From: Candidatus Levyibacteriota bacterium
Lineage (GTDB): Bacteria; Patescibacteriota; Microgenomatia; Levybacterales; UBA12049
Assembly: GCA_052034235.1 (NCBI GenBank)
Contig: JBPOIT010000012.1
Coordinates: 34,161-98,160 of the forward strand
DNA: 64,000 nt
Direction: 5' to 3'
Shown: positions 38,607 to 59,211 of the stretch, one piece after another
Numbering within the stretch: the stretch's first letter is position 1
Layout: every line of letters begins with the position of its first letter
Program-made: the position numbers and the translations under genes
The notes under the pieces: generated by a model
Database searches by the model: none
The model's input: the letters and a program-made list of their open reading frames with translations, nothing else
What the model was told of the DNA's origin: nothing

Positions 38607-39260
38607 ATGTTTGGTATTCAGAAGTTAGACTTACTTATCGGCTTTTACATCACCTGTGTGCTTCTTTCCGAACTAATGGGAGCAAAAACCGTACCTCTTT
38701 TTTCGATTGGATCATTTAATGTTAACGGCACAGTGTCTCTGCTTGTACTCCCTCTTATTTACTCGATAAACGACGTCGTTGTTGAAGTCTACGGTAAAGA
38801 ACGCGCAAAAAGCTTAATCAGAACAAGCCTTGTGATGATCTTTTTTATCCTCATTTACGCACTCATTGCGACATCCTTGCCGCCAAGCACCAGGTTTAAA
38901 CCAACCGAGGCTGCATACGATACAATCTTTGGCTTATCAGCAAGGTTTGCGGCAGCAAGTCTCATTGCTTTCATCGTCAGTGAGTTTCTTGATGTGTACA
39001 TATTCTCCAAAGTTCGACAAAAACTCGGAAAAGGAAAACTATGGCTCAGAACAAACGTCTCAAATTTTGTTTCCCAATTTATAGATGTCGCGATCTTTAT
39101 GATTTTGGCATTCTATGCATTTGACCTGTCTGCTGCTGAAAACTTCAGCTTTATTGCAGGAATCGCTATCCCCTATTATCTGCTGAGATGTTTTATGTCT
39201 GTTATTGAAACACCTTTTGTTTATGTCGGCGTAAAGTGGTTAAAAAAAGAAAATAAATGA
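38607..39260 (+). CDS. COG1738/YhhQ-family transporter (7-deazapurine queuosine-precursor transporter family)
   Basis: Motifs 'LVLPLIYSINDVVVEVYGKERAKSLI' and 'ASLIAFIVSEFLDVYIFSKVRQ' align with E. coli YhhQ ('FIFLATDLTVRIFGAPLARRII', 'ASFMAYALGQILDVHVFNRLRQ'). Confidence 0.8.
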   Translation: MFGIQKLDLLIGFYITCVLLSELMGAKTVPLFSIGSFNVNGTVSLLVLPLIYSINDVVVEVYGKERAKSLIRTSLVMIFFILIYALIATSLPPSTRFKPTEAAYDTIFGLSARFAAASLIAFIVSEFLDVYIFSKVRQKLGKGKLWLRTNVSNFVSQFIDVAIFMILAFYAFDLSAAENFSFIAGIAIPYYLLRCFMSVIETPFVYVGVKWLKKENK

Positions 39261-39781
39261 AAGTAATCTTGCTTTATGTTTCCTCTATCGATGGGAAAAT
39301 AACCAAATGGGGACAAAAACGTATCCATTTATGGACATCTCCTGAAGATGCCACGTATTTCCGCAGCACTGTTGAAAAAAAGAAACTTCTTGTCATGGGC
39401 AGCAGCACCTTTGATACGGTACACCCTCAACCTGAAAAAGGTATTTTACGTCTGGTTGTCACAAGAAACCCTGAGACATATAAATCATATGCTGTGCCAG
39501 GCCAATTGGAATTTATAAATAGTACACCGACAAAACTTGTTGAAAAACTTACCAATGAAGGTTATAAAGAAATGCTTCTCGTGAGTGGAAAAACGTTATC
39601 AACTGAATTCCTCAAGAAAAAACTTGTTGATGAATTATGGCTCACAATCGAGCCAAAAATATTTGGAAACGGTGACGGAATGGTTCATGATGAAAAACTG
39701 GACATTCAATTAAAAGTAGTAACAGTGCAGAAATTGAATGCTAACGGAACACTTCTAGTAAAATATAAAATTGAACGATGA
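39257..39781 (+). CDS. RibD C-terminal domain / dihydrofolate-reductase-family NADPH reductase
   Basis: 'MKVILLYVSSIDGKITKWGQ...' and 'LLVMGSSTFDTV' fit the PF01872-like pattern. An ATGA overlap joins it to the upstream gene. Confidence 0.75.
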   Translation: MKVILLYVSSIDGKITKWGQKRIHLWTSPEDATYFRSTVEKKKLLVMGSSTFDTVHPQPEKGILRLVVTRNPETYKSYAVPGQLEFINSTPTKLVEKLTNEGYKEMLLVSGKTLSTEFLKKKLVDELWLTIEPKIFGNGDGMVHDEKLDIQLKVVTVQKLNANGTLLVKYKIER

Positions 39782-40542
39782 TTGTTACAGCTTACAAAAC
39801 ACATAAAATTCAACCCGGAGAAAAAATAGAGGCTATCCTTGATCGGTACTTACCAACACTTGAAGAAAACAGTATTGTTGCTATCGCCTCAAAAATTGTA
39901 GGAATCTGCGAAGGTCGCGTTGTGAAAATTGTTTCTGAAGACAATAAAGACGAACAAAAAACTGAACTCGCAATGACAGAGGCAGATTTTTATTTGCCCC
40001 GCGAATTTAATCAATACGGGTTTATGATCACTATTAACAGAAATGTCATGGTCGCCTCAGCAGGTATTGACGAATCAAATAGCGACGGAGCATTTTCATT
40101 ATGGCCGAAGGATCCACAACTGAGTGCAAACACTATTCACGAATACTTATGCCGTAAACATAATAAAACGCATATCGGTGTCATTCTGACTGACAGTAAA
40201 CTCACGCCGCTCAGATGGGGTGTCACTGGCATTGCGATTGCATACAGCGGCTTTTCGGCACTCAATAGTTATATTGGCAAACCAGATATTTTTGGCAGAC
40301 CAATGAAGGCAGAACAAGCAAACATTGCAGATTCTATCGCAACAGCCGCAGTTGTAGAAATGGGAGAAGGCGATGAGCAACAACCTTTAGCTGTCATCAC
40401 TGATGCAAAATTCGTCAATTTTCAAGAGAGAAACCCCACTCTAGAAGAATTACAAAGTCTTAACATCAATCTGGAAGATGACGTGTATGCATCACTCCTT
40501 ACATCAGTGGCCTGGAAAAAAGGAACAAAAACAAGAGAATAA
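39778..40542 (+). CDS. CofE-like gamma-glutamyl ligase (F420-0:gamma-glutamyl ligase family)
   Basis: 'IVAIASKIVGICEGRVV', 'ASAGIDESNSDG', 'IGVILTDSKLTPLRWGVTGIAIAYSG' and 'IADSIATAAVVEMGEGDEQQPLAVI' match the CofE pattern. An ATGA overlap joins it to the upstream gene. Confidence 0.75.
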   Translation: MIVTAYKTHKIQPGEKIEAILDRYLPTLEENSIVAIASKIVGICEGRVVKIVSEDNKDEQKTELAMTEADFYLPREFNQYGFMITINRNVMVASAGIDESNSDGAFSLWPKDPQLSANTIHEYLCRKHNKTHIGVILTDSKLTPLRWGVTGIAIAYSGFSALNSYIGKPDIFGRPMKAEQANIADSIATAAVVEMGEGDEQQPLAVITDAKFVNFQERNPTLEELQSLNINLEDDVYASLLTSVAWKKGTKTRE

Positions 40543-42527: not shown

Positions 42528-42557
42528 TTGACACCCGCATAAGAAATAGCTTATAAT
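42528..42557 (+). promoter_or_regulatory. Candidate sigma70-like promoter TTGACA-N18-TATAAT ending 5 nt before the purF ATG (leaderless-type start)
   Basis: The -35 TTGACA is at 42528-42533, the -10 TATAAT at 42552-42557 and the ATG at 42563, with no SD. Confidence 0.45.
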
Positions 42558-42562
42558 TTATT

Positions 42563-44689
42563 ATGAACTTCCATTACACGAAAGAGAAGTGCGGTGTAGT
42601 TGGAGTATGGACCATTGAAAAAGATGCTCCCTATCTAGCACGCCGCGGAATAATTTCCCTCCAACATCGCGGCCAAGAAGGCGCAGGACTCAGCGTGTTA
42701 ACCCCCCAAAAAGACATTGTTACCCATAAAGGCATGGGACTCATCCCTAACGTATTAACTGAAGAAGCAATGACTCAATTAGGATCAAGTAATTTTGCAA
42801 TTGCCCAAAATAGATACGGCACATCAGGAAGCGGCAATGTCAAAAATGCCCAGCCTATAGAGCGAAAGCATGGAGACCTACAAATGTCACTCGGACATAA
42901 CGGAAATATCCCAGATGACCTCCCACTCCTCCGCAAAAAAGCAGGCGACCACAGTAAACAAATCAGCGACACATCACTCATGGCAACACTCATTATGAAA
43001 GAACGCATGACCAGCGACAGTTGGGAAGAAGCGCTCGTTAAAGTTTTGCCAATGTTCAAAGGAGCGTTTTGCAATATCATTCTCACCAATGAACCATCTA
43101 TCTATGCAATGCGCGATCCTTTCGGCATTCGCCCATTATGTTTGGGCAAATTTGAAGACGGTTGGATAATAGCATCAGAATCTGTGTCTCTGGATTCAAC
43201 TGGAGCAGAATTTGTCAGAGATATTATGCCAGGTGAAATAATTAAAATCGATGCCAAGGGTAAGCTCACTTCATTCTTTTATGGAGAACCCAAAAAAGCG
43301 CAACATTGTATCTTCGAATACATTTATTTTGCCAGGCCTGACAGTTTCTTAAATGGAAGACGCGTTAGAGCGGGACGTGAAGAGTCGGGAAGACTGCTCG
43401 CAAAACGAATTCGCGAAAAAGGACTCAAACCAGATGTCGTTATTCCAACATTTGACTCCGGATATGCTGCTGCAAAAGGCTGTGCTGAAGAACTTGGTAT
43501 CCCAATGGTCGATGCAATCACAACAAGCCATTATGTTGGCAGAACCTTTATTCAACCGGGACAATCAAATCGCATCGCTGCGGTAAACGGCAAACACAAT
43601 ATCGTTCCTGATGAAGTGTATGGAAAAAAGATTGTAATTGTTGATGATTCAGCAGTCAGACTCACAACAAGTACACGACTTGCCAGAGGATTTCGTGAAG
43701 CAGGTGTTGCAGAAATATACATGGGCTTTGCCAGTCCTCCAGTTGTCGAACAATGTGATTTAGGGATTGATATGCGGACAAAAAAAGAGTTGCCGGCAGC
43801 CAAATTTATCAAAATGCCATTTGAAAAAATTGAAAAGAAAGTTGCAGAACACGTTGATGCAGACGCAGTCGTCTATCTTCCAATCGAAGAAACCGCTCAA
43901 GCATTTGGCGGTGTCAAAGAAGATTACTACTACTTCCCCTTCGGTGGACCTCATCCAATAAGAGGAATACAGCCAGTCTTTCCTAAAATGAAAAAGCAAC
44001 TCAGTGATAAACCAAAAATTGCAATCTTTATTTCAGGCAAAGGAACTTTTTTGCCAGATATCTTTGAATCAATTAAAAAAAGAGAAATGCATGCCGAGAT
44101 AGTAGATGTTATTTGTAATAAGCCCGATGCTCTTGGACTCGAAAAAGCTAAAAAGTATAACGCTCAAACGACCGTACTTCCCTATGTTAATAAATTTAAA
44201 GATAAAACATTACGAGAGACTTACGATAAAAACCTGATAGCACATCTTAAAAAAGTTAAACCTGATATCATACTCTTATCTGGCTGGCAAATGATTTTAA
44301 GTGAAGCATTTTTGAATGCAGCTCAAGAAATGGAAATCCCTGTTATCAATCACCACCCAGGGCTTCTGACAAGTGATACTTCAGAAGAAGTCGCAACTTC
44401 CAGAGGAAGTATTCCTGTTCTTAGAGGTGGAAGTGTTTGGAAAGATGCTTTTGAAAAGAAACTTCCTGTTTCAGGTATTACCGTGCATCAAGTCTTACCT
44501 GGTGATGGATTTGATGTCGGACCAGTTATTCTTAAAGGAGAAGTACGGATAAAAAAGGATGATACGTTTGAAAGTTGGAGAAAAAAAATGGATGAAATAG
44601 AACATCTCCTCCTGCCTGCAGCACTCAAACGGGTACTGCATGTTATGAAATCAGGAATTGATACCAGTCATGGTAAATATCCCTGGTAG
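42563..44689 (+). CDS. purF: Amidophosphoribosyltransferase fused to a C-terminal GAR formyltransferase (PurF-PurN fusion)
   Basis: The N-terminus has a 9-aa propeptide then 'CGVVGVW' (Ntn Cys) and the PRTase motif 'IVIVDDSAVRLTTS'. The C-terminal ~230 aa, from about 44009, read 'KPKIAIFISGKG', 'VINHHPGLL' and 'GITVHQVLPGDGFDVGPVI' (PurN Asn/His/Asp triad). Confidence 0.85.
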   Translation: MNFHYTKEKCGVVGVWTIEKDAPYLARRGIISLQHRGQEGAGLSVLTPQKDIVTHKGMGLIPNVLTEEAMTQLGSSNFAIAQNRYGTSGSGNVKNAQPIERKHGDLQMSLGHNGNIPDDLPLLRKKAGDHSKQISDTSLMATLIMKERMTSDSWEEALVKVLPMFKGAFCNIILTNEPSIYAMRDPFGIRPLCLGKFEDGWIIASESVSLDSTGAEFVRDIMPGEIIKIDAKGKLTSFFYGEPKKAQHCIFEYIYFARPDSFLNGRRVRAGREESGRLLAKRIREKGLKPDVVIPTFDSGYAAAKGCAEELGIPMVDAITTSHYVGRTFIQPGQSNRIAAVNGKHNIVPDEVYGKKIVIVDDSAVRLTTSTRLARGFREAGVAEIYMGFASPPVVEQCDLGIDMRTKKELPAAKFIKMPFEKIEKKVAEHVDADAVVYLPIEETAQAFGGVKEDYYYFPFGGPHPIRGIQPVFPKMKKQLSDKPKIAIFISGKGTFLPDIFESIKKREMHAEIVDVICNKPDALGLEKAKKYNAQTTVLPYVNKFKDKTLRETYDKNLIAHLKKVKPDIILLSGWQMILSEAFLNAAQEMEIPVINHHPGLLTSDTSEEVATSRGSIPVLRGGSVWKDAFEKKLPVSGITVHQVLPGDGFDVGPVILKGEVRIKKDDTFESWRKKMDEIEHLLLPAALKRVLHVMKSGIDTSHGKYPW

Positions 44690-44706: not shown

Positions 44707-45981
44707 ATGGATAAAAAGAATGTGTTAATCATCGCATCTGGAGGCCGTGAACATGCTCTCGGCTGGAAACTTAAACAATCCGAAAAGGTGGGTAAGATTT
44801 ATTTCGCACCGGGAAATGCCGGCACCGCCAAAATTGGTATTAACACAGATATCGCAGCGCTTGATTTTGCCTCACAAATCGAATTTGCAAAAACTCACGA
44901 TATTGCACTCACCATTGCAGGCCCTGATGATATTTTGGCAGCTGGAGTTGTTGATGCATTTCAAAATGCCGGACTGAAAATTTTTGGTCCTTCAAAAGCT
45001 GCTGCACAAATTGAAGCATCAAAGGCATTTGCAAAAGACCTTATGCAAACAGAAGGTATCCCAACCGCAAAATACCAAACGTTTACTGATGCAGAAAAAG
45101 CAAAAGCATATATCAAAGAACAAGGAGCACCGATTGTTATTAAGGCAAGCGGCTTGGCACTTGGCAAAGGTGTTGTTGTAGCAATGACTCTTGAAGAAGC
45201 TGAGAAAGCAATTGAAGATGCAATGGTTACAAAAGTATTCGGAGATGCAGGATCTGAAGTTGTCATTGAAGAATTTCTACAGGGTCCTGAAGTTTCGATT
45301 CACGCCTTTTCAGACGGAGAAAACGTAGCACTCTACCCAGCTTCTCGTGATCATAAACCAATTTTCGAAGACAACAAAGGCCCCAACACAGGTGGCATGG
45401 GAACTATTGCTCCACTTCCTGAGATCTCCTCTGAGCAACTTGAAACTATAAAAAAGACAATTGTACTTCCGGCAATTGAAGGTATGAAGAAAAGAGGTAT
45501 ACCATTTGTTGGTACACTTTACCCCGGGCTTATGATGACAAAGGACGGTCCAAAAGTTATTGAATTTAATTGCAGATTTGGTGATCCAGAATTTGAATCA
45601 TACATGCGGCTTCTTAAAACAGATATCTATGACATTTTGGTCGCTTGTGTTGACGGAACACTTGCAGATCTTACGATTGAATGGCACGATCAATTCGCTT
45701 GCTGTATCATACTTGCATCAGCTGGCTATCCTGCTAGTTCACAAAAAGGTATTGCTATACAAGGACTCGAAACTGTATCTGGAGATGTTGTTGTTTTCCA
45801 TTTGGGAACCAAACAGGACGGCGAAAATATCGTCACAAATGGCGGGAGAGTTATTGGCGTAACCGCTGTTGGTAACACACTTGATGAAGCACTTGATAAA
45901 GCATATAGTGCAATTGGAGAGAACGGCATTCATTTTGAGGGAATGCAATATAGAAAAGATATAGGAAGGGTTACTGTATAA
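44707..45981 (+). CDS. purD: Phosphoribosylamine--glycine ligase
   Basis: 'VLIIASGGREHALGWKL' and 'FAPGNAG' in a 424-aa ATP-grasp protein. Confidence 0.9.
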   Translation: MDKKNVLIIASGGREHALGWKLKQSEKVGKIYFAPGNAGTAKIGINTDIAALDFASQIEFAKTHDIALTIAGPDDILAAGVVDAFQNAGLKIFGPSKAAAQIEASKAFAKDLMQTEGIPTAKYQTFTDAEKAKAYIKEQGAPIVIKASGLALGKGVVVAMTLEEAEKAIEDAMVTKVFGDAGSEVVIEEFLQGPEVSIHAFSDGENVALYPASRDHKPIFEDNKGPNTGGMGTIAPLPEISSEQLETIKKTIVLPAIEGMKKRGIPFVGTLYPGLMMTKDGPKVIEFNCRFGDPEFESYMRLLKTDIYDILVACVDGTLADLTIEWHDQFACCIILASAGYPASSQKGIAIQGLETVSGDVVVFHLGTKQDGENIVTNGGRVIGVTAVGNTLDEALDKAYSAIGENGIHFEGMQYRKDIGRVTV

Positions 45982-45982
45982 G

Positions 45983-48958
45983 ATGACGACACGGATAGAA
46001 ATTGGCGCAACTGTTTTTGATACGAGAGCTGCCGCGCGAGTTAAAAAGTTTCAATCACTCGGCTACAAACAGATCTCAACTCTTTGGATTTTCGATGTCT
46101 ATACTATCGATAAGAATTTTACTCAGACGCAACTTGAAGACATCGCTTCAAGACTTGCAAATCCTCTGACCCAAAACTTCGCCATTGTAAATGGTTCAAC
46201 AAAACCTGCCACAAAGAAATTCGCCTTTGCTATAGAAATTGGTTTTCTCCCGGGCGTTACCGATAATGTTGCCCATACAACAAAGGAGATAATTGAAGAC
46301 GGATTAAAAACAAAATTCGCCGAAACTGAAGGCGTCTACACTTCACAAGTCACATTTGTTGACGGCAAACTAACAGCCGAGGAGGCAGATCAAATTGCAG
46401 CATCACTTTATAATCCACTGATTCAAAGAGCTCATGTCAAAACATATGCTCAATTTATAAAAGACAACGGCATGGATGTTATTGTTCCACAGGTAAAACT
46501 TTCTGCAAAACCAAATATCTCTGATGTAAATCTGAATGTCTCAGATGAAGAACTTACTGTTATCGGTAAACAAGGAATAGCAAATGCAGATGGAACAAGA
46601 CGCGGACCACTCGCGCTTGACTTAACGTACATGAAAACCATTCAAGCATATTTCAAAAAGCTGGGACGAAATCCTACTGATATTGAAATTGAATCAATAG
46701 GCCAAACGTGGTCTGAGCATTGCAAACACACAATTTTTGCAGATCCACTTGATGAATTGAAAGACGGATTATTTAAGACATATATTAAAGGTGCTACTGA
46801 GTTGATACGAAAGAAAAAATCTGCCAAAGGCGGATCCGGTGATTTTTGTATTTCTGTTTTTACTGATAACTCAGGAGGTATTGCACTTGATGAGACATAC
46901 ATGGTGACACATAAAGTCGAAACACATAACAGTCCGTCAGCACTTGATCCATTTGGCGGTGCAATTACTGGTATCGTCGGCGTGAATCGTGACACCATCG
47001 GATTTGGAATGGGCGCAAAACCTGTTGCGAATTTTTACGGTTATTGCTTTGCAGATCCTCGAGTTGATATCCCGCTTTTTAGAGATCAAAAACTCACAAA
47101 TAAAATGCTCTCGTCGTCAAGAATTATGAACGGTGTTATTGATGGTGTGAATGCAGGAGGTAACCAATCAGGAATTCCAACGCCGTTGGGTTTTGTTTAT
47201 TTTGATGAACGTTATCGCGGGAAACCACTTGTCATTGTTGGAACAGTTGGACTCATACCACGAAAAATAAAAACAAAACTATCACATGTTAAAAAAGCGA
47301 AACCCGGTGATTTAATAGTTATAATCGGCGGACGTGTTGGAAAAGACGGCATCCATGGTGCAACGTTTTCATCAGAGGCGCTTGATAGTGGAAGTCCAGC
47401 AGCAGCGGTCCAAATCGGCGATCCGATTACACAGAAAAAATTAAGTGATGCAATCGTAAAAGAAGCGCGCGACATGCTTTTATATAACAGCATAACTGAT
47501 AATGGCGCCGGTGGACTTTCCTGCTCTGTCGCCGAAATGGCTAAAGAATCAGGTGGAGCAAAAGTCGAACTTGAAAAAGTACCACTGAAATATCCTGGAC
47601 TTGATCCTTGGGAAATTTGGGTTTCGGAATCACAAGAACGAATGACATTGGCAATACCAAAAACCAAATGGAAGAAGTTTTTAGAACTCATGACACGACG
47701 AGGAGTCGAAGCAACAGTTATTGGTGAATTTACAAAAACAGAAAAATGCGTTGTCACCTTTAACGGCAAAACAATTATGGATATGGATATGACATTTCTT
47801 CATGACGGTCTACCTGCTAAACAATTAACAACAACCTATGTCAAACCACTTTTTGAAGAGACATCTGTACCCGAAGAAAAATCATTAACAAACTCTCTGA
47901 GTGAAATGCTAAGCAGATTAAATATCACCAGTTTTGAATTTATATCACAACAATATGATCACATTGTCCAAGGGAATGCGGTTCTCGGGCCACTCCAGGG
48001 AAGAGGACGTGTGAATGCTGAAACAGCAGTTATTCGTCCAGTTCTTGATTCAAATAAAGGTGTTGTTCTGTCTCAAGCACTCTACCCTACGTACTCTGAA
48101 ATTGATCCATATAATATGTCTGCCAGTGCAATTGATAGTGCAATCAGACAGGCAGTTGCAGCAGGCGCTGACCCCGACAAACTGGCACTGCTTGATAACT
48201 TCTGCTGGTGCAGCAGCAACGATCCTGAAAGACTAGGCCAGTTAAAACTAGCTGTCAAAGCATGTTTCGATTATGCAGTTGCATACGGTACTCCATATAT
48301 TTCCGGCAAAGATAGTATGTTTAATGACTTTAAAGGGTATGATGAAAATGGAAAACCAATCGCTATTTCAATCCCGCCAACACTTCTTATTTCAAGTATT
48401 GGTGTTATACCCGACATTACAAAAGTCGTGTCACTCGATGCAAAAGTTCCTGGCGATTTAGTGTATATTCTCGGTGAAACATTTGAAGAACTCGCAGGGT
48501 CAGAATATTTCCAGTTGAAAAATGCGATAAGTAACGCAGTACCCAAAGTTGATCCGCGAAAAAATAAACTTATGTATGATGCATTTTATCAAGCAGTCCA
48601 AAAAAATCTCATCGCATCAAGTATCAGTATTGGACGGGGTGGTATTGCAACAGCTCTTGCCAAAAAAGCAATCGGCGGACAACTGGGACTTTCAGTAAGT
48701 CTACAAAATTTACCAGGACAAATAAGTCGTGATGATTTTGCACTCTATTCTGAAAGCCAAGGAAGAATACTTGTAACTATTGCAAAAGAAAAGAAAACCG
48801 CATTTGAAAAAGCTTTTGCTGGAATGAGTTTTCTACAGATTGGAAGTGTAACCAAAGAGCAACTAGTAGCTGTTAAAGGATTAGGTGGAATTGAAATAAT
48901 AAATCTCGATCTAAAAAAAGCAACTGATTCATATAGAAAAACATTTAAGGATTATTAA
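45983..48958 (+). CDS. purL: FGAM synthase large subunit with two N-terminal PurS-like modules (PurS-PurS-PurL fusion)
   Basis: 991 aa. Residues 1-80 and ~85-170 each look like PurS ('GATVFDTRAAARVKKFQSLGY...'). The remainder is the PurL AIRS/AIRS_C duplication ('GGAITGIVGVNRD', 'SGKDSMFN'). Confidence 0.85.
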   Translation: MTTRIEIGATVFDTRAAARVKKFQSLGYKQISTLWIFDVYTIDKNFTQTQLEDIASRLANPLTQNFAIVNGSTKPATKKFAFAIEIGFLPGVTDNVAHTTKEIIEDGLKTKFAETEGVYTSQVTFVDGKLTAEEADQIAASLYNPLIQRAHVKTYAQFIKDNGMDVIVPQVKLSAKPNISDVNLNVSDEELTVIGKQGIANADGTRRGPLALDLTYMKTIQAYFKKLGRNPTDIEIESIGQTWSEHCKHTIFADPLDELKDGLFKTYIKGATELIRKKKSAKGGSGDFCISVFTDNSGGIALDETYMVTHKVETHNSPSALDPFGGAITGIVGVNRDTIGFGMGAKPVANFYGYCFADPRVDIPLFRDQKLTNKMLSSSRIMNGVIDGVNAGGNQSGIPTPLGFVYFDERYRGKPLVIVGTVGLIPRKIKTKLSHVKKAKPGDLIVIIGGRVGKDGIHGATFSSEALDSGSPAAAVQIGDPITQKKLSDAIVKEARDMLLYNSITDNGAGGLSCSVAEMAKESGGAKVELEKVPLKYPGLDPWEIWVSESQERMTLAIPKTKWKKFLELMTRRGVEATVIGEFTKTEKCVVTFNGKTIMDMDMTFLHDGLPAKQLTTTYVKPLFEETSVPEEKSLTNSLSEMLSRLNITSFEFISQQYDHIVQGNAVLGPLQGRGRVNAETAVIRPVLDSNKGVVLSQALYPTYSEIDPYNMSASAIDSAIRQAVAAGADPDKLALLDNFCWCSSNDPERLGQLKLAVKACFDYAVAYGTPYISGKDSMFNDFKGYDENGKPIAISIPPTLLISSIGVIPDITKVVSLDAKVPGDLVYILGETFEELAGSEYFQLKNAISNAVPKVDPRKNKLMYDAFYQAVQKNLIASSISIGRGGIATALAKKAIGGQLGLSVSLQNLPGQISRDDFALYSESQGRILVTIAKEKKTAFEKAFAGMSFLQIGSVTKEQLVAVKGLGGIEIINLDLKKATDSYRKTFKDY

Positions 48959-48960
48959 GT

Positions 48961-49764
48961 ATGAAAATAAAACCAAAAGCACTTATATTTTCAGGATACG
49001 GATTAAATTCAGAAGAAGAAACAGCTTATGGATTTGAAATGGCTGGAGCAACTGCTGACATTGTACATATCAATGATGTCATCGACGGCACATACAAACT
49101 AAAAAATTATCAGATCCTTTCGTTTCCCGGTGGATTCGCATACGGTGATGATACTGGTTCAGGAAATGCGTATGCCAATAAAATAAAAAATCATCTTTGG
49201 GAAGAAGTTAAAACGTTTATAGAAAGAGACACATTGGTAATCGGTATCTGTAACGGTTGCCAGATTGTTAATAATTTAGGCCTCGTTCCGGCATTTGAAA
49301 AACAGTATGGAGAGCGTCAGGTTGCCTTGCAGCATAATGAATCAGCTCGTCTTGTGTGCAGATGGATTGACATGAAAGTAACAGCCAAAACACCATGGCT
49401 TACCGGTATTGAAACACTTTCGCTACCAATTGCTCATGGAGAAGGAAAATTCTATACCTCCACAGAAAACTTAAAAAAACTTCATGCTAATAAACAAATT
49501 GCACTTCAGTATGTCACAGGTCCTATGAGTACTTATCTGGATTTACCTGCAAATCCTAACGGTGCAATTGATGATATCGCTGGTATAATTGATGAGACTG
49601 GTAAAATATTAGGACTTATGCCGCATCCAGAACGAGGCATGTTCTTTAGTCAAATGCCAAATTGGCCGGTACAAAAAGAAGAACTCTTAAGACAGAATAA
49701 AAAACTGCCAAAAGAGGGACCGGGTTTGCAACTGCTTAAGAATGCTGTACAATACTTTAGCTGA
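48961..49764 (+). CDS. purQ: FGAM synthase glutamine amidotransferase subunit
   Basis: 'ALIFSGYGLNSEEE', the catalytic 'GICNGCQ' and 'HPER' in a 267-aa protein. Confidence 0.9.
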   Translation: MKIKPKALIFSGYGLNSEEETAYGFEMAGATADIVHINDVIDGTYKLKNYQILSFPGGFAYGDDTGSGNAYANKIKNHLWEEVKTFIERDTLVIGICNGCQIVNNLGLVPAFEKQYGERQVALQHNESARLVCRWIDMKVTAKTPWLTGIETLSLPIAHGEGKFYTSTENLKKLHANKQIALQYVTGPMSTYLDLPANPNGAIDDIAGIIDETGKILGLMPHPERGMFFSQMPNWPVQKEELLRQNKKLPKEGPGLQLLKNAVQYFS

Positions 49765-49766
49765 AT

Positions 49767-50792
49767 ATGAATAATAAAAAGTATACAATCGCAACACTTG
49801 GAAGTCATTCATCTTTGCAAATATTAAAAGGCGCTAAAGATGAAGGTTTTCAAACGCTTATTATTTCAACACCTGAAACTGAAGCATTTTATAAAACATT
49901 TCCGTTTATTGATGAACATATAATTATTCCAAAATTTTCAGAATTTTCAACGATTGAAAAAACACTCATTGAAAAAAATGTGATTGTTATCCCCCATGGT
50001 TCGTTTGTTGCATACCTCGGCTCAGAAAAAAATAAAACAATGAAAGCTATGTATTTCGGAAATAAAAGTGTTCTTGATTGGGAAGAAGACAGACAAAAGC
50101 AACGAGAATGGTTAACAGAAGCAAAGATAAATGTGCCGGAGCAGTTTGACTTAAGCGATGAAAAGAAAAGACCAATTCAATATCCAATTATTGTTAAGTC
50201 ATATGGAGCAGCTGGTGGCAAAGGATATTTCTACGCCAGAGACCGAAAAGACTTCGACGCAAAAATGGAAACGTTTGGAAAGAAAAAATATGTTATTCAG
50301 GAATACATAATCGGCGTTCCACTGTATGTCCATTTCTTTTATTCACCACTTACTGACAAACTTGAAATTATGAGTATGGATAAAAGGTACGAAACAAACG
50401 TCGACTCACTTGGTAGAATTCCACTTGAAGGACAAAAAGGACTTGTTATCGAACCTTCATATGTCGTTGTTGGTAACAGTAGTCTTGTTCTCCGTGAAGG
50501 GATGCTGACAGAAGCTTACAATATGGGCAGACGAGTAATCGATGCCTCAAAAAAACTTATCGACAAACGCGGCATGTTCGGCCCATTCTGCGTGGAAACA
50601 ATCATCACACCAGACCAGCGATTCTATGTCATGGAAATTTCCTGTAGAATTGTTGCAGGAACCAATCTCTTTACCTATGGATCTCCCTATTCATGGCTCT
50701 ATTATGATGAACCAATGAGTACAGGACGAAGAATCGCCAGAGAAATAAAAAATGCTATTGCTGATAATACCCTGCCCCAAGTATTAGACTGA
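49767..50792 (+). CDS. purP: 5-formaminoimidazole-4-carboxamide ribonucleotide (FAICAR) synthetase, archaeal-type formate-dependent PurP
   Basis: 'IATLGSHSSLQILKGAKDEGF', 'HGSFVAYLG', 'YFGN', 'HFFYSPL', 'MDKRYETN' and 'MGRRVIDASKKL...MFGPFCVE' closely track the M. jannaschii PurP family (DUF1246/DUF1297). Confidence 0.85.
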   Translation: MNNKKYTIATLGSHSSLQILKGAKDEGFQTLIISTPETEAFYKTFPFIDEHIIIPKFSEFSTIEKTLIEKNVIVIPHGSFVAYLGSEKNKTMKAMYFGNKSVLDWEEDRQKQREWLTEAKINVPEQFDLSDEKKRPIQYPIIVKSYGAAGGKGYFYARDRKDFDAKMETFGKKKYVIQEYIIGVPLYVHFFYSPLTDKLEIMSMDKRYETNVDSLGRIPLEGQKGLVIEPSYVVVGNSSLVLREGMLTEAYNMGRRVIDASKKLIDKRGMFGPFCVETIITPDQRFYVMEISCRIVAGTNLFTYGSPYSWLYYDEPMSTGRRIAREIKNAIADNTLPQVLD

Positions 50793-50793
50793 C

Positions 50794-52341
50794 ATGACAA
50801 ATAGTAAAACAACACATAAAACATCATACGCACTCATCAGTGTTTTTGACAAAGCAGGAATTCTCGACTTAGCAAAAACATTTGTAGAGAAGAATATTAA
50901 AATAATTTCAACCGGTGGTACTGCTAAATACCTTAAAGAAAATAACATTGACATAATCCCCATTGAAGATATAACCAAAATGCCTGAGAGTTTTGATGGA
51001 AGAATGAAGACAATCAGTTTTGAAATCGCATCAGGAATACTCTATGACAGACACAACACGTCGCATCAAGAACAAGCAGAAAAATTACAAACTCCTCACA
51101 TCGATTATATCGTTTGCAATTTTTATGATTTCTGGAAAAAACCAGGGATTGAAATGATTGATGTCGGCGGCCCAACAATGGTTCGTGCAGCTGCAAAAAA
51201 TTATCAAAGCGTCACAGTGCTGGTAAACCCTGACGACTACAGTGTCGTTATAGAAGAAATTAAAACCAAAGGACAACCAAGTGAAGAACTTCGTAAAGTA
51301 CTCGCAGGAACAGCTTTTTCCTACGTTGCAGAATATGACGCACTGATTGCAAATTATTTTCAAAAAGACGTCGATAGTGCAGATTGGTTCATTTCACTGC
51401 GAAACGGTAAGCGCCTGCGTTACGGAGAAAATCCTCATCAACAGGGCGAATTTTTTAAAGATCTTGAAGATACAGATGCGCTCGGACTTGGCAATTATGA
51501 AATGCTCCAGGGAAAAGAAATTTCATACAGCAATTATCTCGATTTAGACGGCGGTCTTCAGGCACTTTCCTGTATCGGACAAGAAAAACCAGCATGTGTT
51601 ATCTTAAAACACACCAACCCATGCGGCGCTGCACTTGGGAAAGATTTGAAAGACGCATTTCATAAAGCATGGTTTGAAGGAGATCCACTTGCTGCATTTG
51701 GTGGCATCATTTTCTTTAACAGACCTGTTGATGGAAAACTTGCAGAATATATGTTGGCTGATCGAAAGTTTTTTGAAATCATCGCCGCACCTGAATTTAC
51801 AAAAGAAGCACGAGATTTATTTAAAATAAAACCCAATTTGCGTCTTCTAGAAAACAAAGCACTGAGTAAACCTCAATTAGAGCCATATAGAGAAATTAAA
51901 AGAGTTCGGGGAGGATTTCTTGTACAAGACACTGATGTCAAAGTTCTTGATAAAAAAGCATTAAATGTTGTGACAAAGAAAAAACCAACCTCATCACAAA
52001 TTGAAGATATGCTTTTTGCCTGGGAAATCTCACGGGTTAGTAAATCAAATTGTGTGGTTGCTGTAAAAGACGGAGTGCTTCTCGCATCGGGAGTTGGACA
52101 ACAAGATAGAAAGCGCTGTTGTGAATTATGTGTTAGTAAAGCCCTTAAACCATTAACTGGAGCTGTCGCAGCAACCGACGGCTTTTTTCCTTTCAGAGAT
52201 GGACCTGATGTCTTGATCAAAGCGGGAGTGACTGCCATAATTCAACCAGGCGGCTCAATTAGAGATCAGGAAACAATTGACGCCTGTAACGAAGCAGGAA
52301 TAACCATGATCATGACAGGTGTCAGAGCATTTAAACATTAA
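50794..52341 (+). CDS. purH: Bifunctional AICAR transformylase / IMP cyclohydrolase
   Basis: 515 aa. The MGS-like N-terminus is 'ALISVFDKAGILDLAKTFVEKNIKIISTGGTAKYL' and the AICARFT domain carries 'VVAVKDGVLLASGVGQQDR'. Confidence 0.85.
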   Translation: MTNSKTTHKTSYALISVFDKAGILDLAKTFVEKNIKIISTGGTAKYLKENNIDIIPIEDITKMPESFDGRMKTISFEIASGILYDRHNTSHQEQAEKLQTPHIDYIVCNFYDFWKKPGIEMIDVGGPTMVRAAAKNYQSVTVLVNPDDYSVVIEEIKTKGQPSEELRKVLAGTAFSYVAEYDALIANYFQKDVDSADWFISLRNGKRLRYGENPHQQGEFFKDLEDTDALGLGNYEMLQGKEISYSNYLDLDGGLQALSCIGQEKPACVILKHTNPCGAALGKDLKDAFHKAWFEGDPLAAFGGIIFFNRPVDGKLAEYMLADRKFFEIIAAPEFTKEARDLFKIKPNLRLLENKALSKPQLEPYREIKRVRGGFLVQDTDVKVLDKKALNVVTKKKPTSSQIEDMLFAWEISRVSKSNCVVAVKDGVLLASGVGQQDRKRCCELCVSKALKPLTGAVAATDGFFPFRDGPDVLIKAGVTAIIQPGGSIRDQETIDACNEAGITMIMTGVRAFKH

Positions 52342-53432
52342 TGGATACAAAGCAAATTACCATAGCAACACTCGGAAGTCATTCAGCACTTGAGGTATGT
52401 CGAGGGGCAAAGGATGAAGGATTTAAAAATGTCGTTGTCTGCCAAAAAGGTCGTGAGGCAACTTATGCCAAATATTACAAAACAAACGGCTCAACAGGTT
52501 GTGTTGATGATGTCATCCTCGTTGATTCATTTAAAGATGTCTTAAAACCGGAAATCCAAAAACAGCTCATCGACCGCAACAGTATATTTATCCCCAATAG
52601 ATCTTTTGAAGTGTATATCAATGACTACAACGCAATTGAAAATGATTTTAAAGTCAAAATGTACGGCAATAAAAAAATTCTTCGAATTGAAGAACGAGGT
52701 TTCAAACCAAACCAATATGATCTTTTAGATGCAGCACGCATTCGTTATCCAAAACAATTTTCAGATCCAAAAGACATTGATTGTGTCTGTCTTGTAAAAG
52801 TGCTTGAACAAGAAAGAGGATTTGAAAGAGCATTTTTTATCGTTGATAGTTTTGAAGATTTCAAAAAACAAACTGATGAAAAAATCAGTAAAGGTATTTT
52901 CACTGAGGAACAATTAGGTAAAGCAGTTATAGAAGAATTCATCGTTGGTGTTCAAGTTAATTTTAATTATTACTATTCCCCGATTCATGATCGTTTGGAA
53001 CTGCTTGGAACTGATACCAGACGACAAACAAATTTTGAAGGCATAACCAAACTTCCTGTTGTGTATCAGGAAGAAGTACTCAAAAAAATGTCAATCAAAT
53101 ATGAAGAAGCAAGTCATACAGCTGTGACAGTTCTTGAATCACTGCTTGAACCGGTTTTTGAAATCGGTGAACGATTTGTAAAAGCATCAAAAGAACTTTC
53201 CTCACCTGGCGTCATCGGTCCATTTGCACTGCAATCATTTATCATCCCCGGTCCTCCAAAAAAAGATATCGTCGTCATCGATGTCTCGCCTCGCTATCCA
53301 GGATCTCCAGGCATTACGGCAACACCTTACAGCGGTTATCTTTTTGGAAAGTCGGTCAATGTCGGAAAGCGCATTGCTATGGAAATCAAAGAAGCAGTAG
53401 AATTAAAGAGACTTGATGAAATAATTTCATAA
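52341..53432 (+). CDS. Second, more divergent PurP-family ATP-grasp paralogue
   Basis: The N-terminus 'ITIATLGSHSALEVCRGAKDEGF' and C-terminus 'IGPFALQSFI', 'GKRIAMEIKEA' mark the PurP family. The middle is more divergent than in the 49767 copy. Confidence 0.75.
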   Translation: MDTKQITIATLGSHSALEVCRGAKDEGFKNVVVCQKGREATYAKYYKTNGSTGCVDDVILVDSFKDVLKPEIQKQLIDRNSIFIPNRSFEVYINDYNAIENDFKVKMYGNKKILRIEERGFKPNQYDLLDAARIRYPKQFSDPKDIDCVCLVKVLEQERGFERAFFIVDSFEDFKKQTDEKISKGIFTEEQLGKAVIEEFIVGVQVNFNYYYSPIHDRLELLGTDTRRQTNFEGITKLPVVYQEEVLKKMSIKYEEASHTAVTVLESLLEPVFEIGERFVKASKELSSPGVIGPFALQSFIIPGPPKKDIVVIDVSPRYPGSPGITATPYSGYLFGKSVNVGKRIAMEIKEAVELKRLDEIIS

Positions 53433-53433
53433 T

Positions 53434-54828
53434 ATGAGTGACCAAAAATTACCTTTTTCAGAACTAACAGCAATCTCGCCACTTGATGGACGTTATCGGT
53501 CACGTGTTGAAGAACTCGCACCCGTTGTCTCGGAATATGCCCTCATCAAATTTCGCATGGAAATCGAAATTACATATTTACTCGCACTATCTGAAGCAGA
53601 GGTGACACGACCATTTACTGATGATGAAAAACAATTGCTCCAAACAATTCTTAACGACACTAGTTTTGAAAGTATTGAAAAAGTAAAAGAAACAGAGAAC
53701 CAAACACGACATGACGTTAAAGCAATGGAGAGAACGCTTCGTTCATTACTTGAAAACACCTCACTTAAAGATCAAATTGAAATGATTCATATCGGACTCA
53801 CATCCGAGGATATTAATAATATCGCTTATCGATTGATACTCACACGCGGAACAGCTGTTGTTTTACATACCCTTGAAGAACTGATTGATGAGTTGGTAAC
53901 TCGTTCAAAAGAGTTCCGCTCAGTTCCCATGCTTGCCCGAACGCATGGACAACCAGCAGTCCCAACAACAGTCGGGAAAGAACTTTCAACCTTTGCAATT
54001 CGTCTTAATAGACAAGTGAGAAAATTACAAAAGCAAAAACTAACAGGAAAGTTAAACGGTGCGGTTGGTAGTTTTAATGCCTTACAATATGTCTTCCCTA
54101 AAACAGACTGGCCAGCATTTTCTGAAAAGTTTATTTCATCGTTTGGACTAACTCCAAATCTTTTTACAACACAAATAAATCAATATGATGATGTTATCGA
54201 GTATCTACAAATCATCCATAGAATTAACGGCATACTGATCGATTTTAATCAGGACATGTGGAGATATATCAGTGATGAATGGTTTGTCCAGGTTGCGAAA
54301 AAAGGAGAAGTCGGATCATCAACAATGCCGCAAAAAGTTAATCCAATTGATTTTGAAAATGCTGAAGGAAACTTGGGAATTGCTAATGGCATTATCGAAT
54401 CAATGTCCAGAAAACTGGTTATTTCAAGACTGCAAAGAGATTTATCAGACAGTACAACCATTAGAAACTACGGATCAATTCTTGCGTATGGGCTCGTAGG
54501 ATATAAAAGTATTCTAACCGGACTTGGACGAGTAAATCCAAATGTTGAAAAAATCTCACAGGAATTAAACAAAGAATGGGCCATTTTAGGTGAAGGTGTT
54601 CAAACACTTTTACGAAAAGTAGGAGTTGAAGATCCATATTCACTCATTTCATCTTTAACACGTGGTGAGAAAGTTGATGCAAAGCAGTGGACAGAGTGGG
54701 TTAAAAATCTTCCGGTTGCTGATGAAACAAAAACAATCTTACAAAATCTGACGCCCGAAACATATATCGGTTTGGCTCCAGAACTTACTGATAAAGCACT
54801 TGCAGAGATTGAAGAATCGAGAAAATAA
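53434..54828 (+). CDS. purB: Adenylosuccinate lyase
   Basis: It has the fumarate-lyase signature 'GSSTMPQKVNPIDFENAEGN' and is 464 aa. Confidence 0.9.
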   Translation: MSDQKLPFSELTAISPLDGRYRSRVEELAPVVSEYALIKFRMEIEITYLLALSEAEVTRPFTDDEKQLLQTILNDTSFESIEKVKETENQTRHDVKAMERTLRSLLENTSLKDQIEMIHIGLTSEDINNIAYRLILTRGTAVVLHTLEELIDELVTRSKEFRSVPMLARTHGQPAVPTTVGKELSTFAIRLNRQVRKLQKQKLTGKLNGAVGSFNALQYVFPKTDWPAFSEKFISSFGLTPNLFTTQINQYDDVIEYLQIIHRINGILIDFNQDMWRYISDEWFVQVAKKGEVGSSTMPQKVNPIDFENAEGNLGIANGIIESMSRKLVISRLQRDLSDSTTIRNYGSILAYGLVGYKSILTGLGRVNPNVEKISQELNKEWAILGEGVQTLLRKVGVEDPYSLISSLTRGEKVDAKQWTEWVKNLPVADETKTILQNLTPETYIGLAPELTDKALAEIEESRK

Positions 54829-55959
54829 GTGATGAAAAATCGAATTGGCATTGTTGGCGGTGGACAATTAGGAATAATGTTAACAGATGCTGCAAAAAAA
54901 TTAGGTTTTTCTGTCACCGTCATCGACCCCACTCCAAATAGCCCAGCAGGACAAGTTGCAGATCAACAAATCACAGCGCATTTTACTGATGAAAATGCAA
55001 TTAGAAAACTTGGCGAAGAATCTGACTTTTTAACATTTGAAATTGAGCTGGCCAACGCAAAAATCCTTGATGAACTTTCAGAACAAGGTTTGCAAATAAA
55101 TCCCTCTGCAAAAACATTAACGCTTATTAAAGATAAATTGGAACAAAAGAAATTTCTCCGCAAAAACGGAATTCCTGTTACTGATTTTGTAGGAGTCGAA
55201 ACCATAGATGACATAATTATTGCCGGACGTGAATTTGGCTATCCGTTTTTACTTAAAGCGCGTTTTGACGCATACGACGGAAGGGGCAATGCGCTCGTAA
55301 AAGAAGAAGCTCAAATTCAAGATGCATTTAATGGATTAGGAGGTAAATATTTATACGTAGAAAAATTTGTACCATTCATGAAAGAATTGGCTATAAATGT
55401 CGCTCGTAACAATAAAAATGAAATACTTTCTTATCCAGTTGTAGAAACCGTCCACAAAAATAATATCTGTCATATTGTTACAGCACCTGCACCCGTAAAT
55501 GATCTTGTAAAAGAACAAGCTAAAAAGTTTGGCGAAGAAACAATGAAACACCTGGGGGGTGCAGGGGTATTTGGAATTGAAATGTTTTTAACGGAAGAAG
55601 GAAATGTACTACTAAACGAAATCGCACCACGTGTTCATAATTCAGGACATTACACAATTGAAGCATGTCAAACATCACAATTTGAACAACATATACGCGC
55701 AGTAACCGGCATGCCCCTCGGATCAACTGAAATGATTGTTCCGGCAGCGGTGATGATCAATATTCTCGGCGAACGAAATGGAAAAGCAGAACCAAAAGGT
55801 ATTCAAGAAGCAGAAGCTATCACTGGTGTGAAAGTGCATATCTATGGTAAAATGGAAACACGAATTGAACGTAAAATGGGTCATCTGACAGCAGTCGCTG
55901 ATACTGTGGAAGAAGCAATGCAAAACGCTAAAAAAGCACGAGATCTAATAACTATATGA
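54829..55959 (+). CDS. purK: N5-carboxyaminoimidazole ribonucleotide synthase (ATP-grasp)
   Basis: '[29 protein letters not shown]' plus the ATP-grasp core. It is upstream of, and overlaps by 4 nt, purE. Confidence 0.8.
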
Positions 55960-56480: not shown

Positions 56481-56482
56481 TT

Positions 56483-57457: not shown

Positions 57458-57462
57458 TTCTT

Positions 57463-58314: not shown

Positions 58315-58316
58315 CT

Positions 58317-59168: not shown

Positions 59169-59211
59169 TAGCTAAAAATGCTATAATATAAGCTAGTTTA
59201 GACACGCTGTT

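What the first reader, a model, noticed from the sequence alone, without database searches (positions are those of the whole stretch)
42563..44689. PurF-PurN fusion: purine steps 1 and 3 in one polypeptide while step 2 (PurD) remains separate
The ORF is 708 aa. Residues 1-~475 are a complete glutamine PRPP amidotransferase with propeptide, Ntn-Cys 'CGVVGVW' and a PRTase loop. Residues ~478-708 are a GAR transformylase-like domain that retains the Asn-His ('VINHHPGLL') and Asp ('GDGFDVGP') catalytic triad, with a ~35-residue insertion. Fusing non-consecutive steps is unusual, since the common fusions are PurD-PurM-PurN or PurN-PurH arrangements, and would bracket the labile phosphoribosylamine intermediate. 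The frame is continuous in the sequence shown, so it is not an obvious assembly join.
Basis: seen in the sequence. Interest (0 to 1): 0.6.

Follow-up and report, generated by a model that had tools for sequence, protein, structure and literature searches.

The report
Fused PurF–PurN purine enzyme
This is a real, conserved gene in which the first and third enzymes of purine synthesis are joined into one protein because their genes were already neighbours in this bacterial group; it is a modestly interesting, apparently undescribed variant whose rarer relatives fuse all three first steps and could help test whether the unstable first intermediate is handed directly between enzymes.

Summary
Window 42563..44689 (+) is one uninterrupted 708-aa ORF: a PurF half (Ntn-glutaminase plus PRTase, residues 10-467), an ordered 17-residue linker, and a PurN-type formyltransferase domain (485-708). 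It is not an assembly artefact. At least 140 public proteins share the architecture (33-100% identity), including one on a 1.14-Mb contig with the same gene neighbourhood, and the catalytic residues of both halves are invariant in all or all but one of them. The fusion heads a complete pur operon that has no other GAR transformylase. The "non-consecutive steps" puzzle has a simple answer: Microgenomates relatives with a stand-alone PurF have the gene order purF-purN-purD, so the fusion merges two adjacent genes. It arose at least three separate times. Rare relatives carry PurF-PurD-PurN (pathway order) and PurF-PurD fusions, which supports a functional step-1/2/3 unit. The window's clade has also lost two of the four Fe-S ligands. 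No paper describing the architecture was found. Bifunctionality is well supported; channelling is inferred. Interest is moderate.

The parts
42528..42557 (+). Perfect sigma-70-type promoter (TTGACA, 18 nt, TATAAT). The ATG lies 6 nt after the -10 box, so the operon mRNA is probably leaderless.
   Evidence: 12 of 12 consensus matches; the other sites in the region are 9/12, at chance level.
42563..44689 (+). purF-N: the 708-aa fused amidophosphoribosyltransferase / GAR transformylase ORF, stop codon included.
42563..42589 (+). Putative 9-residue propeptide preceding the N-terminal nucleophile Cys10.
   Evidence: Cys10 is present in 139 of 140 family members, with a gap in the last. The preceding extension varies in length across the family. 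Cleavage itself is inferred from B. subtilis-type PurF.
42590..43282 (+). Ntn glutamine amidotransferase domain of PurF (about residues 10-240). C10, N113, G114 and D136 are invariant.
43283..43963 (+). PRTase domain of PurF (about residues 241-467). D361, D362 and S363 are invariant. The flexible loop 322-344 is disordered in the model. Fe-S ligand positions are C249, C398, Y456 and P459, so two of four ligands are lost.
43964..44014 (+). Inter-domain linker, residues 468-484 (IQPVFPKMKKQLSDKP...). It is ordered in the model (pLDDT 84-95). It occupies the position of the purF C-terminal tail plus the purF-purN intergenic spacer in relatives.
44015..44686 (+). PurN-type formyltransferase domain, residues 485-708. 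S491, G494, N596, H598, H642, D651 and E680 (E. coli S8, G11, N106, H108, H137, D144, E173) are each kept in 138-139 of the 140 family members.
44369..44413 (+). 15-residue insertion in the loop after HPGLL (residues 603-617). T612, S613 and G615 are conserved. It is predicted to be a β-hairpin.
44707..45981 (+). purD (GAR synthetase, step 2), 17 nt downstream of the fusion's stop codon.
45983..49764 (+). purL with a fused PurS-like N-terminus (991 aa), followed by purQ. Together these provide step 4.
49767..60321 (+). Rest of the operon: PurP-like gene, purH, second PurP-like gene, purB, purK, purE, purC, two EamA transporters and purM. It contains no second purN and no purT.
38607..40542 (+). 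Upstream trio: Vut_1-family transporter, DHFR-like reductase and a CofE-family 'putative folate metabolism gamma-glutamate ligase'. This is a likely folate salvage and polyglutamylation module. The same trio is conserved next to the fusion in a 59%-identical relative.

Best explanation
The gene encodes one bifunctional polypeptide. Its N-terminal PurF half makes phosphoribosylamine (PRA) from PRPP and glutamine (step 1). Its C-terminal PurN-type domain formylates GAR with 10-formyl-tetrahydrofolate (step 3). It arose when two already adjacent genes merged. In this bacterial group the ancestral operon order is purF-purN-purD, and loss of the purF stop codon turned the short spacer into a 17-residue ordered linker. 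The fusion is transcribed from a strong promoter at the head of a complete pur operon, with purD (step 2) translated from the next cistron 17 nt downstream. Shown here: the architecture, the conservation of both catalytic sets, the origin from adjacent genes, the recurrence of the fusion, and the lack of any other GAR transformylase in the operon. Inferred: both activities, use of folate, and the idea that the fusion guarantees 1:1 stoichiometry and gives PurD a docking platform so that unstable PRA and then GAR pass between nearby sites.
For: The closest solved structures by sequence and by fold are PurF for the N-half (1ao0: 268 bits, target TM 0.86) and PurN for the C-half (3p9x: 72 bits; 3auf and 3p9x: target TM 0.79-0.84). 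In 140 fusion proteins spanning 33-100% identity, C10, N113, G114, D136, D361 and D362 (PurF) are invariant, and the equivalents of E. coli PurN N106, H108, D144, H137 and E173 are each kept in 138-139 of 140 (numbering verified against 1c2t). The AlphaFold model has pTM 0.89 and mean pLDDT 87, with an ordered linker. No other formyltransferase or purT is present in the 64-kb window, and every other pathway step is encoded in the operon. Folate-related genes lie next to it, and purH passes its NCBIfam cutoff (570 bits against 402). folD sits inside the operon of a relative. Stand-alone relatives show purF-purN-purD, with a 46-nt gap in one and an 11-nt overlap in the other. The P0276-type fusion is 58% (PurF) and 64% (PurN) identical to stand-alone Roizmanbacteria proteins but only 38% and 34% identical to the window's halves, so it is an independent fusion. 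PurF-PurD-PurN and PurF-PurD fusions exist in relatives.
Against: Both halves fall below NCBIfam equivalog cutoffs (purF 331 against 350; PurN 118 against 150). The window's subclade has Phe at the position of E. coli Asn13 in the GxGSN loop, where 113 of 140 family members keep Asn. The canonical PurN 'MR' of the AGFMRIL strand is QM here. A 15-residue insertion sits in the loop next to the active site. No enzymatic data exist. The rest of the genome could not be searched for a second purN or purT.
Confidence: 0.8

Rival explanations
1. The C-terminal domain is a formyltransferase-fold module that no longer makes FGAR. It might act as a folate-sensing or regulatory appendage of PurF, or formylate a different acceptor or use a different donor. 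Step 3 would then be done by another enzyme, for example one of the two PurP-like formate-dependent ATP-grasp ligases in the operon.
For: The PurN score is below the equivalog cutoff. N13 is replaced by Phe, R90 is lost, and there is a loop insertion. The operon has two PurP-like paralogs, and Brown et al. 2011 (PMC3261824) say the function of 'cluster II' PurP-like proteins is undemonstrated.
Against: The Asn-His-Asp triad, H137 and E173 are each kept in 138-139 of 140 proteins over deep divergence, which is hard to explain without catalysis. PurN is by far the best-scoring family for the domain. Stand-alone orthologs sit exactly at the purN position between purF and purD. Fusion-bearing operons without PurP-like genes in the stretch read (L011) still have no other GAR transformylase there.
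Confidence: 0.12
2. The fusion is evolutionarily neutral: an accidental stop-codon loss between adjacent genes that was tolerated. Both activities are retained, but there is no kinetic or structural coupling and no PurD docking.
For: Adjacency of purF and purN fully explains why these two steps are joined. E. coli PurF and PurD never gave a stable complex (review PMC10912719).
Against: The fusion is retained across a clade whose members have diverged to about 33% identity. It arose independently at least three times. The linker is ordered and the whole-protein pTM is 0.89, which suggests a fixed domain arrangement. Relatives also fuse PurD.
Confidence: 0.35
3. The long ORF is an assembly or frameshift artefact that joins separate purF and purN genes.
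For: The junction DNA contains A4-A5 runs. A related long-read contig shows neighbouring genes split by apparent frameshifts.
Against: The identical protein is present in a second assembly. At least 140 homologs from NCBI, JGI, ENA and Logan have the same continuous architecture with an alignable linker.
Confidence: 0.01

Closest known systems
B. subtilis-type glutamine PRPP amidotransferase (PurF; PDB 1ao0, 1gph)
   Same: Same two-domain fold (target TM 0.86). It shares the Ntn Cys preceded by a propeptide, the HNGN oxyanion motif, the DDS PRPP motif and the flexible PRTase loop.
   Different: It carries an extra C-terminal PurN domain. Two of the four [4Fe-4S] Cys ligands are replaced (Y456, P459) in the window's clade, whereas deep-branching fusion members keep CxxC. 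It scores just under the TIGR01134 cutoff.
E. coli / Bacillus PurN GAR transformylase (PDB 1c2t, 3p9x, 3auf)
   Same: Same fold (target TM 0.79-0.84). It shares the Asn106-His108-Asp144 triad, His137, Glu173 and the SGxG phosphate loop.
   Different: It is fused behind PurF. It has a 15-residue β-hairpin insertion after HPGLL, Trp in place of Phe/Tyr88, no Arg90, and Phe in place of Asn13 in this subclade. It scores below the TIGR00639 cutoff.
Eukaryotic trifunctional GART (PurD-PurM-PurN) and haloarchaeal PurN-PurH1 fusion
   Same: These are natural fusions that place PurN in one polypeptide with other purine enzymes, including non-consecutive steps (GART covers steps 2, 5 and 3) (PMC3261824; PMC10912719).
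   Different: The partners differ. None of the described fusions includes PurF. Here step 1 is joined to step 3 and PurD is left separate.
[quoted passage not shown] 1998 docking model), as summarised in PMC10912719
   Same: It concerns the same chemical problem, handing the labile PRA from step 1 to step 2. The fusions found here (PurF-PurN plus adjacent PurD, PurF-PurD, PurF-PurD-PurN) are what one would expect if such coupling matters.
   Different: In E. coli the proteins are separate and no stable complex was ever detected. Here the association is covalent for PurF and PurN, and only in rare relatives for PurD.

Membership tests
PurF (glutamine PRPP amidotransferase, TIGR01134 / class II Ntn amidotransferase plus type I PRTase) | N-terminal nucleophile Cys exposed after removal of Met or a propeptide | tested here: met
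   Cys10 aligns to Cys1 of mature B. subtilis and E. coli PurF. It is present in 139 of 140 family members, with a gap in the last. Propeptide cleavage was not tested.
PurF (glutamine PRPP amidotransferase, TIGR01134 / class II Ntn amidotransferase plus type I PRTase) | Glutaminase oxyanion and catalytic motifs (HNGN, SDT) and the PRTase PRPP motif (VDDS..R.TT) | tested here: met
   N113, G114, D136, D361, D362, S363 and R366 are invariant. The Gly of the canonical VRGTT is Leu367 in 98 of 140 members.
PurF (glutamine PRPP amidotransferase, TIGR01134 / class II Ntn amidotransferase plus type I PRTase) | Score at or above the NCBIfam equivalog cutoff | tested here: not met
   331.2 bits against a cutoff of 350. 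This is a narrow miss. The Pfam domain cutoffs are passed.
PurF (glutamine PRPP amidotransferase, TIGR01134 / class II Ntn amidotransferase plus type I PRTase) | Two-domain PurF fold | tested here: met
   Foldseek target TM is 0.86 to 1ao0 and 0.81-0.85 to E. coli PurF.
B. subtilis-type (Fe-S) PurF subclass | Four Cys ligands of the [4Fe-4S] cluster | tested here: not met
   C249 and C398 are present. The C-terminal CxxC positions are Y456 and P459.
PurN (folate-dependent GAR transformylase, TIGR00639 / Formyl_trans_N) | Asn-His-Asp catalytic triad (E. coli N106, H108, D144) | tested here: met
   N596, H598 and D651, each present in 139 of 140 members.
PurN (folate-dependent GAR transformylase, TIGR00639 / Formyl_trans_N) | GAR phosphate loop SGxGSN and Glu173 | tested here: inconclusive
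   S491, G494, T495 and E680 are kept. The Asn13 position is Phe in the window and Asn in 113 of 140 family members. The role assigned to Asn13 comes from memory, not from a test here.
PurN (folate-dependent GAR transformylase, TIGR00639 / Formyl_trans_N) | Folate-binding strand (AGFMRIL) and loop 140-146 | tested here: inconclusive
   LSGWQMIL replaces LAGFMRIL, so Arg90 is lost, while the D144/G146/P147 region is conserved. Folate contacts in this strand are largely through the backbone (own knowledge). Binding was not testable here.
PurN (folate-dependent GAR transformylase, TIGR00639 / Formyl_trans_N) | Score at or above the NCBIfam equivalog cutoff | tested here: not met
   117.6 bits (122.6 for the domain alone) against a cutoff of 150.1. 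Pfam Formyl_trans_N is passed at 101 bits against 26.1.
PurN (folate-dependent GAR transformylase, TIGR00639 / Formyl_trans_N) | Genomic role: the only GAR transformylase candidate in a pur operon | tested here: met
   There is no other Formyl_trans_N or PurT in the window. Stand-alone orthologs lie between purF and purD. The whole genome was not available.
PurN (folate-dependent GAR transformylase, TIGR00639 / Formyl_trans_N) | GAR transformylase activity with 10-formyl-THF | not testable with these tools
   This needs an enzyme assay or genetic complementation.

The most novel reading that the evidence does not exclude
The PurF-PurN polypeptide is the core of a bacterial mini-purinosome. Its fixed two-domain architecture, possibly including the conserved β-hairpin insertion, would dock the separately encoded PurD so that PRA and then GAR pass between three clustered active sites. 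The rare PurF-PurD-PurN and PurF-PurD fusions in relatives would be the covalent version of the same assembly. That would give the first structurally tractable natural system for the PRA-channelling hypothesis, which has stood since 1995.
Probability: 0.3. Interest if true: 0.65.

Novelty: new variant of a known kind. Interest (0 to 1): 0.42.

Why it matters
Both enzymes are textbook, and the fusion has a mundane origin in adjacent genes, so this is not a new kind of system. Three things still make it useful. (1) The architecture is common in public metagenomes but is annotated only as 'amidophosphoribosyltransferase', 'formyltransferase family protein' or 'hypothetical protein'. Pathway reconstructions for CPR/Microgenomates genomes can therefore score purN or purF as missing. 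(2) PurF has repeatedly been fused with PurN, with PurD, or with both. This is Rosetta-stone evidence that the first three purine steps work as a physical unit in these bacteria, and it offers natural constructs for testing PRA channelling, where E. coli work never captured a stable PurF-PurD complex. (3) Many CPR bacteria are reported to lack complete de novo nucleotide synthesis, yet this one carries a complete, compact pur operon next to a probable folate-salvage module.

Tried and rejected
The genome-contig scan with the single protein returned only unrelated stand-alone PurFs at 37% identity, because its exact-peptide patterns were too specific. This cost the only scan of that collection, so the species-level distribution could not be mapped. 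The afdb50 fold library was unavailable, so UniProt/AFDB occurrences and organisms were not obtained. An Rfam scan of the whole window at gathering thresholds gave no hits, so there is no known riboswitch or leader RNA upstream. Four literature searches and four papers gave no description of a PurF-PurN fusion, though absence from this library does not prove it is unpublished. An internal start for a separate PurN was considered and rejected: Met476 is not conserved and there is no internal promoter above chance. The idea that the insertion is a fusion-specific interface element was weakened, because the stand-alone PurNs of relatives carry insertions at the same site. The Pfam survey of the other ORFs of 150 aa or more in the window found no folD, fhs or glyA. 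Source names such as 'Acidoferrales', 'Xanthomonadales' and 'Limnocylindrales' on three TPA MAG proteins were not taken as evidence of a wide phylogenetic range, since binning errors are likely; this was not verified. Model coordinates are not exposed by the tools, so the inter-domain interface and active-site distances could not be measured.
Full report
OBSERVATION. Window 42563..44689 (+) is one 708-codon ORF with no internal stop. Pfam places GATase_6/7 at residues 75-210, Pribosyltran at 275-381 and Formyl_trans_N at 485-688 (101 bits, E 8e-29). NCBIfam gives purF (TIGR01134) 331 bits over residues 10-449 and PurN (TIGR00639) 118 bits over 485-693. PurN scores well above PurU (56 bits) and Fmt (29 bits). 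Both top scores lie under the curated equivalog cutoffs of 350 and 150, so both halves are divergent. Against solved structures, the N-half matches B. subtilis PurF best (1ao0, 268 bits), and every C-half match with E ≤ 1e-5 is a PurN (3p9x 72 bits; E. coli 1c2t 58 bits). Its 'about 35-residue insertion' is really a 15-residue block (603-617, TSDTSEEVATSRGSI) after HPGLL plus three small insertions, about 24 extra residues against the Pfam model.

NOT AN ARTEFACT. The identical protein, followed by purD, was also assembled from Logan run SRR34217540. Whether that run is independent of the window's source is unknown. A search of 5.8 billion proteins returned 120 listed clusters that all span both halves (54-100% identity, lengths 652-757 aa), some on contigs of 0.5-1.1 Mb. 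An exhaustive search of 50%-identity representatives found about 20 distinct full-length fusion representatives down to about 33% identity, before ordinary stand-alone PurFs of about 470 aa take over. Source names are sparse. Four members are 'Candidatus Roizmanbacteria', and the sources annotate the proteins only as hypothetical protein, formyltransferase family protein or amidophosphoribosyltransferase.

CATALYTIC COMPETENCE. I aligned 140 fusion proteins. C10, N113, G114, D136, D361 and D362 of the PurF half are invariant, apart from one gap at C10. In the PurN half, S491, G494, N596, H598, H642, D651 and E680 are each kept in 138-139 of 140 sequences. They correspond to E. coli S8, G11, N106, H108, H137, D144 and E173, with numbering checked against PDB 1c2t. 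Three deviations argue for caution. The window's subclade has Phe496 where E. coli has Asn13 and where 113 of 140 family members keep Asn. The canonical AGFMRIL strand reads SGWQMIL. The loop after HPGLL carries the insertion. That insertion has conserved residues (T612 and S613 in 133 of 140, G615 in 139 of 140).

STRUCTURE. An AlphaFold2 model built from a 64-sequence alignment has mean pLDDT 87 and pTM 0.89. Only residues 1-8 and the known PRTase flexible loop (322-344) are disordered. The linker is ordered (pLDDT 84-95), and the insertion forms a confident β-hairpin (strands 609-613 and 615-618). Foldseek matches the halves separately to PurF (target TM 0.86) and PurN (0.79-0.84). No listed PDB match covers both halves; the highest query TM is 0.58.

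CONTEXT. A perfect sigma-70 consensus promoter (TTGACA, 18 nt, TATAAT; 42528-42557) ends 6 nt before the ATG, so the transcript is probably leaderless. The operon runs purF-N, purD (17 nt downstream), purL with a PurS-like N-terminus, purQ, a PurP-like gene, purH, a second PurP-like gene, purB, purK, purE, purC, two EamA transporters and purM. All ten steps to IMP are therefore covered, and the fused C-domain is the only candidate for step 3. tblastn with E. coli PurN hits only 44015-44617, and no purT is present. The other ORFs of 150 aa or more that were scanned encode housekeeping and envelope functions. Upstream lie a Vut_1-family transporter, a DHFR-like reductase and a CofE-family protein whose best NCBIfam match is 'putative folate metabolism gamma-glutamate ligase'. 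That fits a folate-salvaging organism. The same trio, followed by prfB, purF-N and purD, is conserved in a 59%-identical relative on a 1.14-Mb contig.

WHY STEPS 1 AND 3. Two Microgenomates relatives with a stand-alone PurF (P0321 from Candidatus Roizmanbacteria, and P0399 on a 746-kb contig) have the operon order purF, purN, purD, purL, purQ, purP, purP'. Their purN is a separate gene, 46 nt after purF in one case and overlapping it by 11 nt in the other. The window's fusion is therefore the merger of two adjacent cistrons. The 17-residue linker sits where the purF tail and the spacer lie in those relatives. One of these operons also contains folD.

RECURRENCE. A second small fusion group (P0276 type) is 58% (PurF) and 64% (PurN) identical to the stand-alone Roizmanbacteria PurF and PurN, but only 38% and 34% identical to the window's halves. 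It is nested among hundreds of stand-alone PurFs. In a rough NJ tree of PurF domains, the window-type fusions form one near-exclusive clade, while the P0276, P0141, P0143 and P0161 types scatter among stand-alone PurFs. The loop insertion is not a by-product of fusion. The stand-alone PurN of L017 has the same insertion type as P0276, and the stand-alone PurN of L018 resembles the PurN domain of the triple fusion.

RELATED FUSIONS. Two proteins (P0367, 1212 aa; P0381, 1188 aa) come from three samples and each heads a pur operon. They are PurF-PurD-PurN fusions in pathway order. Further rare architectures are PurF-PurD (P0406, P0408), PurF-PfkB-PurD (P0407) and PurF-PurN-PfkB-PurD (P0405). These are Rosetta-stone indications that steps 1-3 act together. 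They rest on few sequences and were not checked further.

MECHANISM. The best-supported reading (confidence about 0.8) is a bifunctional PurF/PurN enzyme created by fusing neighbouring genes, with both halves active and the PurN half folate-dependent. The idea that the fusion also scaffolds PurD and channels PRA and GAR is an inference (about 0.3). The evidence for it is long retention, independent recurrence, a rigid predicted architecture and the PurD-containing fusions. The evidence against it is the sufficiency of the adjacency explanation and the failure to find a stable PurF-PurD complex in E. coli (review PMC10912719).

COMPARISON AND NOVELTY. The described purine fusions found in the papers read are PurD-PurM-PurN (GART), PurE-PurC, PurH, large PurL and the haloarchaeal PurN-PurH1 (PMC3261824; PMC10912719). 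No paper in the searchable library mentions a PurF-PurN fusion. The sequences are public but unrecognised. I rate this a new variant of a known kind, of moderate interest. It is useful for annotating CPR purine metabolism, and it is a natural handle on the PRA-channelling question.

SIDE OBSERVATION. The PurF half belongs to the propeptide-bearing B. subtilis/plant type, but Tyr456 and Pro459 replace the C-terminal CxxC Fe-S ligands. Deep-branching fusion members keep CxxC, so the loss is derived within the window's clade.

Noticed in passing
window 42528-42565: A perfect 12/12 sigma-70 consensus promoter (TTGACA, 18 nt, TATAAT) ends 6 nt before the purF-N ATG, and no Shine-Dalgarno sequence is evident. 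The whole pur operon mRNA is probably leaderless.
   Followed up: partly
window 43928-43939 (residues 456-459); also residues 249 and 398: The PurF half keeps only two of the four [4Fe-4S] Cys ligand positions (C249, C398; Y456 and P459 replace CxxC). Deep-branching fusion relatives (for example P0125-P0138) keep all four. The cluster therefore seems to have been lost within the window's clade while an N-terminal propeptide is retained.
   Followed up: partly
L014 8001-11567, L015 1571-5137, L016 1004-4642: PurF-PurD-PurN triple fusions (1188 and 1212 aa) in pathway order, found in three metagenome samples. Each heads a pur operon. Only two 90%-identity clusters were found.
   Followed up: partly
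proteins P0405-P0408: Other rare architectures: PurF-PurD (about 870 aa), PurF-PfkB kinase-PurD (1214 aa) and PurF-PurN-PfkB-PurD (1411 aa). The role of the PfkB domain and the source organisms are unknown.
   Followed up: no
window 45983-48958: purL is 991 aa. It has an N-terminal region of about 200 residues that matches PurS only weakly (NF005019, 44 bits) and a FGAR-AT linker, but no glutaminase domain; purQ is separate. It is a PurS-PurL fusion, intermediate between small and large PurL. Lengths of 951-991 aa recur in relatives, and one relative (L013) has a full large PurL of 1283 aa.
   Followed up: partly
window 49767-53432: Two PurP-like (DUF1246/DUF1297) formate-dependent ATP-grasp ligase paralogs flank a full-length bifunctional purH. 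Both are below their NCBIfam cutoffs. The organism may thus have both formate-dependent and folate-dependent AICAR formylation, or the second paralog may do something else. The pair recurs in relatives (L009, L017, L018).
   Followed up: no
window 38607-40542: A transporter (Vut_1 / queuosine-precursor transporter family), a DHFR-like RibD_C protein and a CofE-family 'putative folate metabolism gamma-glutamate ligase' form a conserved trio beside the pur operon, also seen in L009. This is a candidate folate salvage module in which the transporter may carry a pterin or folate rather than preQ.
   Followed up: partly
window 44048-44050 (residue 496): The GAR phosphate-loop position equivalent to E. 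coli Asn13 is Phe in the window and 14 relatives and Tyr in 9 others, while 113 of 140 family members keep Asn. The consequence for GAR binding is unknown.
   Followed up: partly
window 57463-59168: Two tandem EamA-family transporter genes sit inside the pur operon, between purC and purM. Their substrate is unknown.
   Followed up: no
L009 12363-16352: In the 1.14-Mb relative contig, purD and purL are each called as two or three pieces (193+148 aa and 217+771 aa). These look like frameshift errors of that assembly rather than real gene splits.
   Followed up: no
L011 1506-3077: A CBASS-like pair (a SMODS/CD-NTase gene plus a Cap15-type effector) lies about 5 kb upstream of the P0276-type fusion gene in GCA_040961635.1.
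   Followed up: no
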